Below are positions 42,001 through 54,000 of a stretch of 60,232 bases of DNA, in pieces. A program made the position numbers. The first letter of the stretch is position 1; each line of letters starts with the position of its first letter. The stretch is from Candidatus Hydrothermales bacterium (GTDB lineage: Bacteria; Hydrothermota; Hydrothermia; Hydrothermales; JAJRUZ01). The stretch covers positions 1 through 60,232 of the forward strand of contig JBCNUW010000012.1 in the NCBI GenBank assembly GCA_039630575.1, written 5' to 3'.

Positions 42001-45000
42001 TAAACTGAGATATTTTGACGTAGTACCACAAAGTAAGGGGTTTATTTTAGTTGATCCCTTTTCCATATCAAAAGAAATGTTTTTATCAAAAAACTCTTTT
42101 CTTTTATTGACACTAATTGATGGAAAAGGTACTATTTCCGATATAAAGTCAAAATATTTGAAAATAACAGGTATTATTTTATCTGATATTGAGATAATTA
42201 ACTTTATAAATGCCCTTGATCAAAATTTTTTACTTTATAATGAGAGATTTTTAGAGAGAGTAAAAAAAGAAAAAGAAAAAATTAAAAATGAAAACTTTAA
42301 GGAAATAAAATATGGGAATAATTTAGAAGAATTAAAGGAAAGTATAAGTAAAAAATATTTTGAATTTACAAAAAGAATTAAGGGGGTTATAGTTCCTCAT
42401 ATTGATCTTAAGGCTGCAATTACAACTTATCAGAAATTTTTTTCTATACTTCAGAGCATAAAAGAAAAAATAATATTTGTATTTGGTGTTCCTCATTTTT
42501 GGTATGAGTTACCTTTTTCAATTTTTCCGAAAAACTTCATGGTTGGAGAAAAGATTGTTGAGAGTGATTTGGCGCTTATAGAAAAAATTTCAAAAGTATT
42601 TGATTACGATATAACTGCTGACTTTTTTGCCTACAAAAGAGAACATTCAATTGAATTTCCTGTTTTATTTATAAGTTTTCTTAATGAAAACAAAAAGGTA
42701 ATCACATCTCTCGTATCAGAAAGTAACGTAAAAAAACTTAAAGAGATTTCAAAGAAAATTACAGAAGTTTTGAAGGATTTAAAAGAGGATATATTTTTGA
42801 TATCAAGTATTGATCTTTCTCATGTTGGTAGAAAATTTGGTGATGAAAAGAGTTATGATCCAGAAGAGGTAGATAAAATATATATCGATTCAATATTAAA
42901 TCTTGAGAACGAAAAGGCTTTTGAACTTTTAGAAAAAAACGAAAACAGAACAAGAATAGATGGTAAAAATACAAACTTTTTATTTTTGGAAATCTTGAAA
43001 GAATTTAACATAAAAAAAGGAAATTTAATAGATTATAAAAAACATTACGAAGAACTGTCAGACTCAATAGTTACCTATGCTCTTATGGTTTTTTGATTAT
43101 TTTTAAGAGTTCTCAAAATACATAATCGGCGATTTGAAAATAAAATAATAAAAAAGGCTTATGAAATTTTCCTTATTTTAAAGATACTCTCATTTTTTCC
43201 TAATTATTTTTTTCTCCTAACTTTTTATTAATACTTAGCAAGGTTAATTTTACTTTTTGCAATTTCATAATCATGTCAACCTCCGCAAAATTTAAAATTT
43301 GTTTGAGAGGTATCAAAGTTAATACTATCACAGGATATTTTTGGCCATTACCACTTTCTTAAATAATTTTCTTTAACATAAGAATTACATTTTTCACAAA
43401 ATTCATGAACTTCTTTATATCTATTATGGTTATCATATAAAAGATTAAAAGAGTTAAAACTTTTATAGGAAATTTATAAAATTTTTATTTTCTTTTTTTA
43501 ACCTTCCTTTTTATTTTCTGAATTTATATTATAAGTTAAAAGTATCACTTTATCTTTAAACATATATGTATTAAGAGGATAGACGTCAGGATCAAAAATT
43601 GTAAAGTAAAAATGCCATACGAGTATGGAAAGTGTTGCAAGTATTGCTTCATAGAAATGAATAATAAGAAAAACTTCAAATAACCAGGCAGGAAAGAGAT
43701 TTAGGAAAAAATTCTTAAACCAAAGAAATATACCTGTTGTTCCCATTATACCTGTCCCCCATATTAAAGCCCAGAATTCAAACTTTTCATAAAAAGTAAA
43801 AGGGTGACCCAGTTCAGGTTTTTCTTTTTTTATACCAAGGTTATAAAGAAAAAGATTTATAGCATCAGTTAGATCCTTAAAGTTAAATATAAGTCTTTTA
43901 AACTTTTCTCTTCCACTTGATGTAAAGATTACTAAAACAAACATCAAAAGAAAAATCATTAACATAAGTGTTCCTGCAATCCTATGAAGATAGGCTCTCA
44001 AAGCACCGTCACCTATTCTTACGAAGAAACTGAATAATATATTATCAGGATAATGATGAGCAAACCCTGTATACACAAGGATGAAAAAAGAAATTATATG
44101 AATCAAATGCATTCTCCTCTCTATTTTTGAAAATCTTGAATTTTTTACTTCTTTAGCTTCCAAATTTCTAAATTTATCAATCCTATATTCTCTTACTTTC
44201 TTCAAATAATCTAAAAAACAATAAATTATCATTCCTCCTATTGTTATTAATATGAGCAATGTGTAAAATATTCTAACAATTTTTTTAACCATAGCTACTT
44301 TCACGCTAACAACTTCATGAACTGGTCCGATTGCTACGCTTTCAGCTATCCCCTTATGGCATTTTCCACATGTTTGAGGCAGATTTTTCTTATTAACAGG
44401 AGATTCAGGGTCATCTGAAGGTAATATAGAATGATTACCATGACAAGATGCACAGTTTGCAGCCTTTATATTACCAGCCATCAGTTTAATTCCGTGATAA
44501 CTTGAAAGGAAATCCTTAAGTTCCATAACAGGGATTCCATATCGCTCGTAAAGTCTTACACTTTCGTGACAATCCGTGCATGTTTTAGGAACATTAATAG
44601 GATACACAGGTGATAGAGGATTCCAAGGGGGTAAAATCCTATGTTCTGAATGGCAGTCAATACAGGATGGTGCTTGAAAATTACCATACCTTATGGCTCT
44701 AAAATGATTACTTTTTACATAATCTTCGTACTCTAATTTGTGACATTTTGAACAAGTCAAAGGAACATTCTGTTTATAAATTGAAGATTTTATATCAGTA
44801 TGAGATCTTATGTTATGAATACCATGGCAATCAGAACAAGAGGCTCCTTTTTTTCCTTTTAAAATCATTTCATGATGGATTCCCTGTTCATACATTTCAT
44901 AGGGATTTTTTATTGGAATTCCCCATTTTTCGGCAAATTCAGGAATTGAATGGCATTTTCCACATGTCTTTGATAGATTTGAATAATATACACTTGAATT

Positions 45001-51000: not shown

Positions 51001-54000
51001 ACATAATATCATAGTTTTATCTCTTTTAATCTTTCTTTTATGTCTCTCGTTTCGTTATAACTCTTAATAATCTTATAAAAAAGTTGACTTAATCTCATAT
51101 AAAATTATAAGCCTTTTAAAGGTTATTTTTTTTCTAAACTTCAATTCCAAAAATTTTCCTTAAAAGAGTTCCTATTAAAAAACTCAAGAAAGATACAGAG
51201 GTTATAATTAAAAACATTTCAAAAAACTTCTTTTTATAATCTTCATCGTAAACAACTGAAACATAAAAAGTAAAAAGTGCGATTATTATAAAGGAAAATA
51301 ATAAAGAAAATAACAGAGACAAAAAAGGATTTTTAAATAAAAAATAGGGAATTAGAAGTGTAACAACTACAAACAAATACATAATACCAGTATAAAGGGC
51401 TGATAAGAGGGGTTTCCTATCACCTAGTTTTTCAGTCTTAACAGATAAATACTCTGATCCGGCCATTGATAGCGAAGCCGAAAAACCAGCTATAAATGCA
51501 GCTATGGATATAAAGAGAGAATTTCTTAAAGCAAAAGTTAAGCCAGCAAGGGCTCCGGTCAATTCAACAAGAGCATCAGATACTCCTAAAATCATAGAAC
51601 CAACATACTTTAGTCTCTCTTCCTCAATAAAGGAAATAAGTTTCATCTCATGTTCTTTTTCCTCCTTTCTTATATTTAAAAACTCCTCAAAGTTACTTTC
51701 AAGAAACTCGTAGGTTTTTTCAGAAAGTTCCTCACCTTTCTCCATCAGTTTTAAGCCAAAAACTATTCCAAATAGCCTTATTACCAATTTATAAAATAGG
51801 ATCTTTATAATATTTGGCTTAACTTCAACTTTTGTAATCTCCCTTAACTTTTCGTAATGCTTTAGTTCATCTTCTCCAATTTTTTTAATTTTTTCTCTCT
51901 CTTTCCCCTTAATTTTTTCTGATAAGTAAAGGTATACGTAATACTCGGTAATTTCCTTTTTTTGGGCATCAATAAGGATCTTTTTTAATTCCAAACTCTT
52001 AAGTTTTTTTAAATCACTTTTTAGCTACAGGGTGTTTTATCTTTTCAAAAAATTCTTTAGATTTAAATTCCTTATATGTGGGAGATTCTGGATTATGACA
52101 TCTTTTACAAAATTCTTCGTTAGGTTCTATCATTCCTACTTCCTCAGGCTTGGTTTTACCTTCATAGACATTTTTCATAACTTGCATTGATTTATACTCA
52201 GAACCTGGACCATGACAATCCTGACAACCTACCCCCTCTTCACCATCCCATCCATTATGACAGGTAACACATTTTTCGGAAGTTAAAGGATCATCTATTC
52301 CCATTTTCTTTGCAATCTCTTTTGACTTTTCAGTTTTTAAAGTTTCAAAAGCCTTTGCATGAGTAGAATTTTCCCATATTCCCCATTGATTTCCTCTTGC
52401 TTCTGCCTTATGACACATCTTACAAACAGTATTTTTAACATATTCAAATTTCTTTTTTTCCTGAGAATACAAAGTTAAATTTAAAATTCCTAAGATTAAA
52501 ATCACCATCTGTTTATCCTCTAATTTGAAAATTTAGGATTTGAACCTTATTATTAATGATAGAATATCTTTTTAAAAATTTTCAAACAAAGGGTTTTAAA
52601 AATATGACACAACTTGAATACGCAAGAAGTGGAAAAATAACTGACGAAATGAGATATGTTGCAGAAAGTGAAGGAAAAAAACCAGAAGAAATAAGGGAAC
52701 TTATAGCATCGGGCAGAGTGATTATTCCAAGGAATATTAATCACAAAAACCTTTTAAAATTTAGTGGAGTTGGGGAAGGTTTAAAAGTAAAGATAAATAC
52801 AAACATAGGGACATCATATGATTATGTAAATTTAGAGGAAGAAATAGAAAAAGCAAGAATTGCAATCGAATACGGTACTGACACCTTGATGGATCTTTCA
52901 ACTGGAGGAGATATTAAGCAAATAAGGAAAAAAATTTTAGAGATATGTACTGTACCATTTGGAACAGTTCCGATTTATGAAGTTGAATTTACTGTAGCAA
53001 GGGAAAAGGGTTCAATTTTTGAGATGAAAGGGGATGATATTTTTAAGGTAATTGAAGAACACGGGAAAGACGGTGTTGACTTTATAACTGTTCACAGTGG
53101 TATAAACATAGAAACTTTAAAGATCTATCAAAATTCAGGTAGATTAACAGGGATAGTATCAAGGGGTGGAGGGTTAATTGCTGCCTGGATGATTGAAAAT
53201 AAGGAGGAGAACCCTTTATACAAGTATTTTGATAGGCTTTTAGAGATAGCACGGGAATATGATATTACACTTTCACTCGGAGATGGTTTAAGGCCTGGGT
53301 CTATAAACGATTCAACTGATAGAGCTCAAATAGCTGAGTTACTTATAATAGGGGAGCTTGTAGAAAAAGCCAGAAGGGCAGGTGTTCAGGTAATGGTAGA
53401 AGGTCCAGGGCATGTTCCATTAAATGAAATAAAAACAAATATTCAAATACAAAAAAAATTAACAAAAAATGCTCCTTTTTATATTCTTGGGATGCTTCCT
53501 ACTGACCGAGCTGCTGGTTTTGATCATATTGCTGGTGCTATAGGTGGTGCAATTGCCGGATGGTACGGAGCTGATATGCTTTGCTATATAACACCTGCAG
53601 AACATCTTGGTTTACCCGATGTAAATCATGTTAAAGAAGGTGTAATTGCCTTTAAAATAGCAGCTCACATCGCTGATATTGCAAGAGGAAATATTAACGC
53701 ATTAAAAGAAAACAGAGAAATGAGTGAGGCAAGATATAGACTTAATTGGGAAAAACAATTTGAACTTGCCCTTTTTCCTAAAGAAGCAAGAGAAATATTT
53801 GAAAAAAGAAAAAGTAACACTCAAGCTTGTTCCATGTGCGGACCCTTCTGTCCCATGAATCTTGTTGAAAAAATTCTTAAAAGAGTTTAAATATAAAATA
53901 GCTTCTTCAATATTTATATAAAAAAAGCCGGGTTCTCTTTAATTTTCAATTTAGTTTTTCTAAAATTCAGGAACCTTTTCTTTAAACTCCTTTAATTTAG

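What a model noticed while it worked through the whole genome (the two positions that open the first line are those of the whole stretch)
43498..52508. Three multihaem-cytochrome clusters with cytochrome-b fusions: an electron conduit in Hydrothermales
Thirteen genes with 2-18 CXXCH motifs (117 in all) lie in three clusters (C4:43498-52508, C1:151077-162706, C3:835-4546); the C4 cluster holds three quinol-oxidase-like modules (a 16-haem cytochrome c fused to a cytochrome b, and 18- and 9-haem cytochromes each followed by a separate cytochrome b), and the C1 and C3 clusters each enclose an unannotated protein (g00139, modelled as all-beta; g00220, of like composition, not modelled). I read this as a CbcL-like inner-membrane entry plus porin-cytochrome conduits for extracellular electron transfer. 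New would be such a capacity in WOR-3/Hydrothermota, so far described as fermentative, hydrogenotrophic or sulfur/oxygen respiring.
Evidence so far: CXXCH counts: g00136-138, 140, 145 = 7, 8, 9, 4, 11; g00218, 219, 222 = 2, 12, 8; g00313, 314, 316, 318, 321 = 16, 18, 9, 9, 4. Ni_hydr_CYTB in g00313 (res 516-697), g00315, g00317; Mtrc-MtrF_II-IV_dom and Paired_CXXCH_1 in g00138. g00139 model: more than 20 long antiparallel strands but pLDDT 41; only 2 homologues found. Paired_CXXCH_1 in 4/10 of the order, 7/271 of the phylum. PMC12542636: 0 occurrences of 'heme', 'iron', 'extracellular electron'; 4 papers hold 'WOR-3' + 'multiheme', none on this by their listing.
(Added by a program. Inside this text positions count along the whole contig: contig position 1 is position 1 of the stretch shown here. 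"Call 12" and the like, gene names such as g00115 and contig names such as C1 are that model's own, and its searches are not shown. The text may have been shortened before it was handed on; [...] marks where a part breaks off. The agent that wrote the report below was given it as the finding of a first reader that could run no searches.)

Follow-up and report, generated by a model that had tools for sequence, protein, structure and literature searches.

The report
Electron-export cytochromes without haem synthesis genes
This uncultured WOR-3 bacterium carries a Geobacter-like gene set for moving electrons out of the cell, including a relative of the OmcE "nanowire" protein; the parts are of known kinds, but it keeps them intact although it seems to have lost the genes for making the haem they need.

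Summary
The 13 genes and 117 CXXCH motifs are real. The window operon holds three CbcL-type modules: one fused 16-haem/cytochrome b and two split 9-haem + cytochrome b pairs. Its 18-haem protein is a separate membrane-anchored relay, not a module head. The cytochrome b occurs in 10 of 11 genomes of the order and 12 of 272 of the phylum. C1 is an OmcE nanowire-type cluster: its 4-haem protein matches PDB 7TFS (E 2e-14) and its barrel's best solved match is MtrB (Z 16.3). C3 is an Ext/Pcc-like porin-cytochrome cluster. All are known kinds, and this scan has noted OmcE clusters on other DNA 54 times, once in a Hydrothermales genome. The unusual part is haem. hemACDB is cleanly deleted in mid-contig, at a junction shared with a sister genome (dS about 1). 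Yet 421 of 424 conserved His/Cys are kept and dN/dS equals background (0.114 vs 0.119). Best reading: outward extracellular electron transfer built on scavenged haem (0.55). Not shown: expression, filament, barrel-cytochrome binding, acceptor, quinone source, haem importer.

The parts
43498..45681 (-). Fused CbcL/MtrH/MtoC-type protein, 727 aa: 16 CXXCH (res 15-442), linker helix, FdnI/HydC-type di-haem cytochrome b (His525, 566, 675, 690); 5 hydrophobic helices
   Evidence: full-length orthologues at 50-69% in G001, G002, G004, G006, G008
45684..47600 (-). 18-haem cytochrome c, 638 aa, one N-terminal membrane anchor, NapC/NirT/NrfH-like N-terminal part, 18 non-motif His; periplasmic relay or quinol dehydrogenase, not a CbcL head
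   Evidence: orthologues in relatives
47597..48508 (-). Separate FdnI-type cytochrome b (partner of the 9-haem gene at 48447-49466), 4 aligned His, charged N-terminal extension
   Evidence: 84-86% identical over 213 aa in four relatives
48447..49466 (-). 9-haem cytochrome c with C-terminal helix: split CbcL-type head, module 2
   Evidence: 37% to residues 211-500 of the fused protein
49463..50131 (-). Separate FdnI-type cytochrome b (partner of the 9-haem gene at 50134-51012), 4 helices, 4 aligned His
   Evidence: matches in 12 of 272 phylum genomes
50134..51012 (-). 9-haem cytochrome c with C-terminal helix: split CbcL-type head, module 1
   Evidence: 43% to residues 282-500 of the fused protein
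51134..51994 (-). Rubrerythrin-VIT1 membrane protein (MbfA-like iron exporter, weak); neighbour, not a cytochrome
   Evidence: same position in G007
52014..52508 (-). Soluble tetrahaem c554-like cytochrome, 164 aa
   Evidence: 91% to G007, 64% to G006

Best explanation
A trans-envelope respiratory chain of the Geobacter type that runs on imported haem. SHOWN (sequence, structure models, comparison): three CbcL-type quinol:cytochrome c modules and an anchored 18-haem cytochrome in the window; an OmcE-type cluster on C1 (OmcE-like tetrahaem, large barrel, 9/8/7-haem cytochromes, NHL propeller); an Ext/Pcc-like cluster on C3 (8-haem lipoprotein-like, barrel, 12-haem, 2-haem lipoprotein-like); CcmC, CcmE and CcmF; complex I, Sdh/Frd and Fdh; deletion of hemACDB; purifying selection on the cytochromes. 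INFERRED: NADH or succinate reduces a naphthoquinone. The cytochrome b domains oxidise the quinol and pass electrons to the 9- and 16-haem heads, and the 18-haem protein carries them across the periplasm. They leave through the C3 barrel/12-haem conduit, or through the C1 barrel to an OmcE-type filament, to a solid or external acceptor (Fe/Mn oxide, elemental sulfur, humics or a partner cell). Cytochrome bd serves when O2 is present. Haem, and possibly the quinone head group, is taken from the community.
For: CbcL architecture with 4 aligned His in all three cytochrome b domains (family features from PMC6295460). The OmcE match covers the mature protein (7TFS E 2.4e-14, 9YUQ E 1.9e-13, the only 2 PDB hits) with 4 CXXCH + 4 distal His. 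The cluster meets the barrel and propeller criteria of PMC13712944 except for the lipid anchor. C1 barrel: pLDDT 75.5, about 30 strand elements, MtrB best of 48,161 chains (Z 16.3, rmsd 9.4, 397 aligned; next 13.7). C1 operon syntenic in G008, G009, G006, with related clusters in G087 and G073. Selection: dN/dS against G008 is 0.114 for 12 cytochrome genes and 0.119 for 42 other genes; relative rate 377:232 vs 275:176; 421 of 424 conserved His/Cys kept. The hem deletion junction is shared with G007 at dS 0.98. Ccm genes present. G000 holds an intact haem-dependent bd oxidase that none of its 4 congeners has over the cut-off.
Against: No expression, physiology or acceptor. G002 and G004 (93% complete) keep the inner-membrane operon, but no conduit cytochrome appeared among their Cytochrome_C7 matches and neither barrel query found them. 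No MqnA/D in 0 of 5 genomes and no MenB over cut-off in 0 of 5: only a MenA-like gene is found, so the quinone is unexplained. No haem importer identified: all TonB receptors score far below the haem-receptor cut-off. G000 has shed other haem proteins (Rieske/cyt b, NrfD module, aa3 oxidase, ACIII, the 6-haem C3 lipoprotein, a c554 domain), and G007 shows the same operon in decay. The C1 barrel evolves faster on the G000 branch (106:46; significance not tested). The NHL propeller has no lipobox Cys, and many signal peptides are unusually short. The cultured WOR-3 strain sy37 did not reduce ferric citrate or ferrihydrite (PMC12285271); whether it has these genes was not checked.
Confidence: 0.55

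Rival explanations
1. The window operon feeds periplasmic or cell-surface sulfur/nitrogen chemistry, or acts as an electron capacitor; the barrels are accessories that only some lineages carry.
For: The operon is order-wide (10 of 11) while the C1 barrel is found in 5 of 11 and the C3 barrel in 3 of 11. Relatives carry HAO-like and octahaem-nitrite-reductase-like cytochromes and a Phs/Psr-like molybdoenzyme. Strain sy37 respires S0 by an unknown route (PMC12285271).
Against: In G000 itself no NrfA- or HAO-like enzyme is among the 13 multihaem ORFs (the C3 8-haem is unassigned), a motif scan found no twin-arginine substrate (a crude test), and both barrel clusters are intact. G001 has a C3-type cluster that the barrel queries missed, so absence elsewhere may be under-detection. 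Reduction of solid S0 at the surface would still be extracellular electron transfer.
Confidence: 0.17
2. A relic: after the haem pathway was lost the cytochrome genes became useless and are on their way out, as in G007.
For: hemACDB, the AhbD-like radical SAM gene, aa3 oxidase, ACIII and Rieske/cyt b are not found in G000. G007's operon is broken by deletions and frameshifts and its cox genes are frameshifted.
Against: The deletion predates the split from G007 (dS 0.98), yet all 13 genes are open and only 3 of 424 conserved His/Cys changed. Neutral drift over about 0.5 substitutions per site should have changed most of them (inference). G007's CoxA is still 85% identical to G008's, so haem use outlasted the deletion there too. 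The test cannot see a very recent loss of function.
Confidence: 0.12
3. The same chain runs inward: electrons from Fe(II), sulfide minerals or a partner enter through the barrels, reduce quinone at the CbcL/MtoC-type modules and end at cytochrome bd.
For: CbcL/MtrH/MtoC homologues occur in both Fe(III) reducers and Fe(II) oxidisers with no distinguishing feature (PMC6295460). G000 has a bd oxidase; congeners have aa3 oxidase and ACIII.
Against: OmcE clusters are described from metal reducers (PMC13712944). G000 has NADH, succinate and formate dehydrogenases that need an outlet, and no Rieske/cyt b was found.
Confidence: 0.1
4. Ordinary haem prototroph with an extracellular electron transfer chain: the hem genes moved and lie in the unassembled 5% of the genome.
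For: G000 is 94.7% complete in 95 contigs. G007 holds a hemB fragment. HemE, HemH, ChdC and AhbA-C were not searched, and HemL could not be assigned.
Against: hemA and the AhbD-like gene are missing from two separate assemblies; hemB and hemC are missing from G000. G007's hemB piece sits on a 1.1-kb contig of 39% GC and is only 61-67% identical to six hemB genes of the order, so it looks foreign.
Confidence: 0.12

Closest known systems
CbcL of Geobacter sulfurreducens and the CbcL/MtrH/MtoC family (PMC6295460, passages and supplement search; bioRxiv 10.1101/2022.08.31.506072, passages)
   Same: N-terminal multihaem c domain joined to an FdnI/HydC-like di-haem cytochrome b, with no FeS, flavin or Mo subunit; 9 haems in the two split heads; the family range is 3-23 haems.
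   Different: Three paralogues in tandem, two of them split into two genes; 16 haems and 5 predicted helices in the fused copy (six in most family members); followed by an 18-haem anchored cytochrome. WOR-3 does not occur in that survey's supplements. No direct comparison with the CbcL sequence was possible.
omcE cytochrome-nanowire cluster (G. sulfurreducens OmcE, PDB 7TFS; D. soudanensis OmcE, PDB 9YUQ; PMC13712944, passages and sections 7-9)
   Same: Tetrahaem subunit with 4 CXXCH + 4 distal His, matching over the mature length; adjacent large beta-barrel; beta-propeller; further multihaem cytochromes.
   Different: One NHL propeller instead of two, without a lipobox Cys; three accessory cytochromes (9, 8, 7 haems); a shorter barrel (525 aa against mostly 560-730); an 11-haem cytochrome 4 kb away whose homologue lies inside the cluster in G087; phylum not among the five named in that paper.
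Porin-cytochrome conduits ExtABCD / ExtEFG / OmcB of G. sulfurreducens (PMC6148476, passages) and MtrAB (PDB 6R2Q)
   Same: C3: periplasmic dodecahaem next to an integral outer-membrane barrel, flanked by lipoprotein-like cytochromes.
   Different: No NCBIfam Ext, Mtr or Omc model reaches its cut-off; the barrel's nearest predicted structures are unnamed clusters of Ignavibacteriota and Calditrichota (TM 0.88); an ArsR gene lies inside; G000 lacks the 6-haem lipoprotein that G008 and G009 have.
Haem auxotrophs that keep c-type cytochromes, such as Bacteroides thetaiotaomicron
   Same: In the control genomes of my searches B. thetaiotaomicron has cytochrome c assembly and c7-type matches but no HemA, HemB or HemC match. 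That it and Haemophilus influenzae mature NrfA on imported haem is recalled, from no call.
   Different: Those live in haem-rich hosts and have a few c-haem sites (recalled); here 117 sites, two barrel clusters and a candidate filament are kept in a genome held by hot-spring metagenomes (one study).

Membership tests
CbcL/MtrH/MtoC | N-terminal multihaem c domain (3-23 CXXCH) | tested here: met
   16 motifs in the fused protein, 9 and 9 in the split heads
CbcL/MtrH/MtoC | C-terminal HydC/FdnI-like cytochrome b with conserved His ligands | tested here: met
   PF01292 over cut-off in all three; 4 His align in all three; weak match to FdnI 1kqf_C, E 0.009
CbcL/MtrH/MtoC | Both domains in one polypeptide | tested here: met
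   Met for 43498-45681 only; the other two modules are two genes each, also in relatives, so they work like CbcL but are not members by this feature
CbcL/MtrH/MtoC | Six transmembrane helices (four or five in a few members) | tested here: inconclusive
   A hydropathy scan gives 5 in the fused protein; crude method
CbcL/MtrH/MtoC | Sequence homology to G. sulfurreducens CbcL; quinol oxidation | not testable with these tools
   No CbcL sequence was returned by any search and none is in the PDB hits; no assay
omcE nanowire cluster | Tetrahaem subunit homologous to OmcE with 4 CXXCH and 4 further His | tested here: met
   7TFS E 2.4e-14, 9YUQ E 1.9e-13; His 27, 45, 133, 182 in the OmcE pattern, also in all 6 WOR-3 rows and 60 of 67 rows overall
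omcE nanowire cluster | Large outer-membrane beta-barrel encoded nearby | tested here: met
   Next gene; pLDDT 75.5; all Foldseek hits shown are outer-membrane barrels; MtrB Z 16.3
omcE nanowire cluster | Beta-propeller protein in the cluster | tested here: met
   NHL repeat, E 1.6e-22; 32-37% to propellers of other OmcE-like loci
omcE nanowire cluster | Two propellers, both lipoproteins (smallest Desulfuromonadia clusters) | tested here: not met
   One NHL gene with no Cys near its N terminus; the 349-aa second candidate is not shown to be a propeller. This describes Desulfuromonadia clusters; the paper's inclusion rule asks for a barrel and a propeller lipoprotein
omcE nanowire cluster | At least two further multihaem cytochromes | tested here: met
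   9-, 8- and 7-haem genes in the operon
omcE nanowire cluster | Subunit polymerises into a conductive filament | not testable with these tools
   Needs cryo-EM or purified appendages
Porin-cytochrome conduit (Ext/Omc type), C3 | Periplasmic multihaem cytochrome next to an integral outer-membrane barrel | tested here: met
   12-haem gene next to a 364-aa all-beta protein (pLDDT 58.3) whose fold hits are outer-membrane barrels; same order in G008, G009, G087, G090 and, with another lipoprotein, G001
Porin-cytochrome conduit (Ext/Omc type), C3 | Outer-surface lipoprotein cytochrome | tested here: inconclusive
   The 8- and 2-haem proteins have a Cys after a short hydrophobic leader (read by eye); localisation not tested
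Porin-cytochrome conduit (Ext/Omc type), C1 and C3 | Cytochrome binds inside the barrel | not tested
   No complex prediction was obtained
MtrA/DmsE, OmcA/MtrC, NrfB, NrfH, HmcA, ExtM, ExtS (NCBIfam) | Score at or above the curated cut-off | tested here: not met
   All far below cut-off, e.g. DmsE 90 vs 192 bits, ExtM 41 vs 800
Haem auxotroph | Early tetrapyrrole genes hemA, hemB, hemC, hemD absent | tested here: met
   No match in G000; flanking nuoG and comEA genes adjoin in mid-contig
Haem auxotroph | A haem uptake system | tested here: inconclusive
   5 TonB receptors; best haem-receptor score 92 vs cut-off 317; one BtuB-like receptor with ABC permease is family-wide

The most novel reading that the evidence does not exclude
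A free-living hot-spring bacterium that cannot make haem still builds a haem-rich extracellular electron transfer chain, including an OmcE-type cytochrome filament, from haem scavenged from its neighbours (perhaps with a salvaged naphthoquinone head group too). Its clade has lived this way for a long time, and a sister species is now losing the respiratory genes.
Probability: 0.35. Interest if true: 0.82.

Novelty: new variant of a known kind. Interest (0 to 1): 0.58.

Why it matters
It adds extracellular electron transfer genes to one order (and two further families) of WOR-3; the parts of the two papers on the phylum that I read describe fermentation, hydrogen use and O2 or S0 respiration. 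It offers a candidate route for solid-phase respiration in hot-spring WOR-3. If haem scavenging holds, public-good haem can support one of the most haem-costly respiratory systems known. That would explain why such organisms resist cultivation and gives a direct recipe to try: add haemin and a naphthoquinone, offer an electrode or mineral. The pair G000/G007 is a natural experiment in keeping versus losing respiration after cofactor loss.

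Tried and rejected
Contamination: rejected; cluster GC matches the genome and identity follows kinship. '18-haem + cytochrome b module': rejected. Loss of menA in G000: considered, rejected because G000 has its own MenA-like gene on C24 and the extra copy in G008 has no counterpart in G007 either. 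G007's hemB fragment as native: rejected as probably foreign. Sequence searches for barrel relatives were nearly blank: C3 barrel 2 and 5 hits, C1 barrel 3 hits among 1.84 billion representatives. The deeper C1 alignment came from an iterated profile on the 85 OmcE-like loci in hand; its first round had only two outside hits (E 6e-5 and 1e-4), so it is partly circular. One barrel with unknown residues was left out of the folding alignment. Foldseek named no close solved relative of either barrel (TM under 0.45), and MtrB is not among the 50 rows listed for the C3 model. The PDB search with the C3 8-haem gave nothing meaningful. The class III aminotransferase search did not identify HemL. The TonB receptor found only in G000 (1 of 11) sits with an ABC_sub_bind gene and a HAMP protein, which looks like a sensing cassette; it is not counted as a haem importer. 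The OmcE tree is a quick tree: 6 WOR-3 rows need 2 changes, one origin is not ruled out, and the clade test did not finish. No RNA holder listed. No read-level check of the hem junction and no complex prediction were obtained, so both questions stay open. Literature searches that found no report of multihaem EET in WOR-3: (listings), with passages read in PMC5569505 and PMC4411801. 'WOR-3' has 0 hits in the supplements of PMC6295460 and PMC11475568; of 38 'hydrotherm' hits in the latter I saw 4, none WOR-3. 'Heme auxotroph' + 'multiheme' + 'c-type cytochrome' gave 0 papers. The supplements of PMC12542636, PMC12285271 and PMC13712944 were not read, and those of the bioRxiv peat paper are closed; any of them could list WOR-3 cytochromes.

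Full report
1. Observation. The assembly G000 (1.89 Mb, 95 contigs, 94.7% complete, 0.4% contaminated) has 13 ORFs with two or more CXXCH motifs, 117 in all, at the places given. Shuffled ORFs give 1.8 motifs in total and at most one per ORF. Two DNA runs labelled hot springs metagenome, from one study, hold most of the window operon; they may be the source.

2. The window operon. Read in the direction of transcription it is: c554-like tetrahaem, rubrerythrin-VIT1, 9-haem, cytochrome b, 9-haem, cytochrome b, 18-haem, 16-haem fused to cytochrome b. Each 9-haem protein ends in one helix and aligns to the distal haem domain of the fused protein (37% and 43%). Each cytochrome b aligns to its membrane domain, and four His align in all three. 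So there are three paralogous modules, one fused and two split. This is the architecture of CbcL/MtrH/MtoC: a multihaem c domain on an FdnI/HydC-like cytochrome b, 3-23 haems, found in 15 phyla (PMC6295460, passages). The 18-haem protein has no BLAST match to them; it has one N-terminal anchor, a NapC/NrfH-like start and 18 spare His.

3. Distribution. The fused protein is full length in 5 of 10 other genomes of the order (50-69% identity, following kinship), in pieces in G009 and G010, and partial or decayed in G003, G005 and G007. The separate cytochrome b matches in 12 of 272 phylum genomes: 10 of 11 in the order and 2 of 5 in one other family. In most relatives the operon is longer, with a Rieske/cytochrome b pair, another 9-haem and another 18-haem gene, and in G001, G002, G004 and G006 a multihaem/4Fe-4S/NrfD module. 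None of the Rieske, cytochrome b or NrfD genes has a tblastn match in G000.

4. C1 is an OmcE-type cluster. The 210-aa tetrahaem has two PDB matches, both OmcE filaments: 7TFS (E 2.4e-14) and 9YUQ (E 1.9e-13). It has the four distal His in the OmcE pattern. It heads an operon with a 525-aa protein, 9-, 8- and 7-haem cytochromes and an NHL propeller, in the same order in G008, G009 and G006. PMC13712944 (sections 7-9) counts an OmcE homologue as a likely nanowire when a large barrel and a propeller lipoprotein lie nearby, and names five phyla, not WOR-3. With a 42-row alignment the 525-aa protein folds at pLDDT 75.5 (pTM 0.64) as an all-beta barrel. Its best match among 48,161 solved chains is MtrB (Z 16.3, rmsd 9.4 A, 397 aligned; next 13.7); in Foldseek MtrB ranks 26th among other barrels, all with TM under 0.4. 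The Atlas gives unnamed Acidobacteriota barrels (TM 0.80-0.82) and MtrB/PioB (0.61). The OmcE-like gene occurs in 6 of 272 phylum genomes. In G087 the cluster also holds a 14-haem homologue (35%) of the 11-haem gene that lies 4 kb away in G000. Of 79 non-WOR-3 loci, 72 have an NHL gene, 59 a barrel by my iterated profile, and 41 both plus two more multihaem genes (the profile was built on these loci). Against membership: only one propeller, with no lipobox Cys.

5. C3 is an Ext/Pcc-like conduit. Order: 8-haem lipoprotein-like, ArsR, 364-aa protein, 12-haem, 2-haem lipoprotein-like; G008 and G009 add a 6-haem lipoprotein. The 364-aa protein folds less well (pLDDT 58.3, 6 rows), but its matches are outer-membrane barrels (Z 12-13), and the Atlas finds TM 0.88 neighbours in Ignavibacteriota and Calditrichota. 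The layout resembles extABCD (dodecahaem, barrel, lipoprotein cytochromes; PMC6148476, passages), but no Ext model reaches its cut-off. The barrel profile matches 7 of 272 genomes; G001 has a similar cluster that the profile missed. G002 and G004 show no conduit cytochrome among their Cytochrome_C7 matches.

6. Haem. HemB is full length in 9 of 10 other genomes of the order and absent from G000. HemC is in 4 of 4 others tested. HemA is in G008, G009 and G010 but not in G000 or G007. An AhbD-like (TIGR04053-type) radical SAM gene is in G008, G006 and G001 but not in G000 or G007. In G008 and G009 hemA-C-D-B lie between nuoG and comEA; in G000 these two genes are about 60 bp apart in the middle of a 74-kb contig. 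G007 aligns across the same junction. G007's own hemB fragment is on a 1.1-kb contig of 39% GC and looks foreign. G000 and G007 differ at dS 0.98 over 26 genes, so the loss is old. Yet against G008 the 12 cytochrome genes have dN/dS 0.114 and 42 other genes 0.119 (dS is near saturation). With G006 as outgroup the G000:G008 change counts are 377:232 and 275:176. Of 424 His/Cys conserved in relatives 421 are kept. The two barrels and the propeller have dN/dS 0.27, and the C1 barrel counts 106:46. CcmC, CcmE and CcmF are present. G000 also has intact cydAB, which 0 of 4 congeners have over the cut-off. G007 has gone the other way: its window operon is in fragments and its cox genes are frameshifted, though it keeps a Rieske/cytochrome b/5-haem set and a 7-motif nitrite-reductase-like gene. 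I infer that the clade imports haem. No importer could be named. Haem auxotrophy with c-type cytochromes has precedents (B. thetaiotaomicron in my control sets); the scale here is what stands out.

7. Rest of the chain. G000 encodes two sets of complex I subunits, Sdh/Frd, a formate dehydrogenase with NuoEF-like partner and Mvh/Hdr, and no haem-copper oxidase. A MenA-like prenyltransferase is present, but MqnA/D is found in 0 of 5 genomes and MenB over cut-off in 0 of 5. The quinone on which the CbcL reading depends is therefore unexplained, in relatives too.

8. Mechanism and rivals. Best reading (0.55): quinol, then the three CbcL-type modules, the 18-haem relay, and the C3 conduit or the C1 barrel and OmcE-type filament, to an external acceptor, all on imported haem. 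The genes, folds, synteny, deletion and selection are shown; the electron path, its direction, the acceptor, the filament and haem import are inferred. Rivals: periplasmic or surface S/N chemistry (0.17), relic (0.12), hem genes unassembled (0.12; this one keeps the electron-export reading and drops the scavenging), inward electron flow (0.10). The cultured strain sy37 uses O2 and S0 but not ferric citrate or ferrihydrite, and its S0 route is unknown (PMC12285271, passages and section 9); I did not see its genome.

9. Novelty. Each part is of a described kind. PMC12542636 (abstract and the section on energy conservation) does not mention multihaem conduits in what I read. My searches listed no paper on them in WOR-3; most subscription papers are not in the library. 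A 2026 preprint describes comparable porin-cytochrome clusters with OmcE-like members in Acidobacteriota and Verrucomicrobiota (10.64898/2026.05.27.727921, passages). This scan holds 54 earlier findings on OmcE-type clusters and one on an OmcE gene in a Hydrothermales genome; I had made the OmcE match before seeing them. Verdict: new variant of a known kind, interest 0.58.

Noticed in passing
window 43498-51012; G000 C1:153465-154349, C3:1092-1946: Many exported proteins start with a very short hydrophobic leader (about 8-10 residues, often with no basic residue), and the first CXXCH can come at residue 14-15. The same is seen in relatives. It may be a lineage-wide short signal peptide.
   Followed up: no
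L020, L021, L022, L025, L032 (G008, G001, G004, G002, G006): Relatives carry a much longer respiratory operon: multihaem/4Fe-4S/NrfD module, Rieske/cytochrome b, two different 18-haem genes and the three CbcL-type modules, with over 80 haem motifs in one stretch in G008.
   Followed up: partly
L027:7267-9139 and L212:6865-12782 (G007): The sister genome shows the same cytochrome operon in fragments and a frameshifted aa3 oxidase operon: respiration in decay after the haem loss.
   Followed up: partly
G000 C9:34805-37137: Intact cydAB. Over the cut-off it occurs only in G000 and in the four genomes of one genus of the other family; possibly a transfer.
   Followed up: no
L064:4417-5760 (G000 C24): MenA-like prenyltransferase fused to an N-terminal PNPOx-like domain; UbiA-family genes of similar length occur in all 5 genomes tested, none of which shows MqnA/D or MenB: possible naphthoquinone salvage.
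   Followed up: partly
L001:13727-14773 and L066:6997-8013: A 340-350-aa protein with a T9SS-type C-terminal domain sits directly before the 11-haem (G000) and 14-haem (G087) cytochrome.
   Followed up: partly
L216:4512-5408 (G000 C2): A UshA-like protein lacks the C-terminal tetrahaem c554 domain that its orthologues in G001 and G006 carry.
   Followed up: partly
window 38511-40611; L214; L217: nuoBCD stands alone in the window; a second nuoA-L set is on C22 and nuoI-L on C78, so complex I is present twice and scattered.
   Followed up: no
L161:6126-9669 (G000 C5): A TonB-dependent receptor with an ABC_sub_bind gene and a divergent HAMP protein, found only in G000 among 11 genomes; best NCBIfam hit is the haem receptor family, far below cut-off.
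   Followed up: partly
L071-L149: OmcE-like genes with barrel and NHL neighbours in Planctomycetota, Acidobacteriota, Calditrichota, Ignavibacteriota, Bacteroidota, Elusimicrobiota, Poribacteria and records labelled Bacillota, Actinomycetota and Thermoplasmata (the last three may be misbinned).
   Followed up: partly
L203, L205, L207, L213 (G001, G002, G007, G001): HAO-like octahaem cytochromes in family f2, a nitrite-reductase-like 7-motif cytochrome in G007 and a Phs/Psr-like molybdoenzyme operon in G001: other possible sinks for the inner-membrane operon.
   Followed up: no
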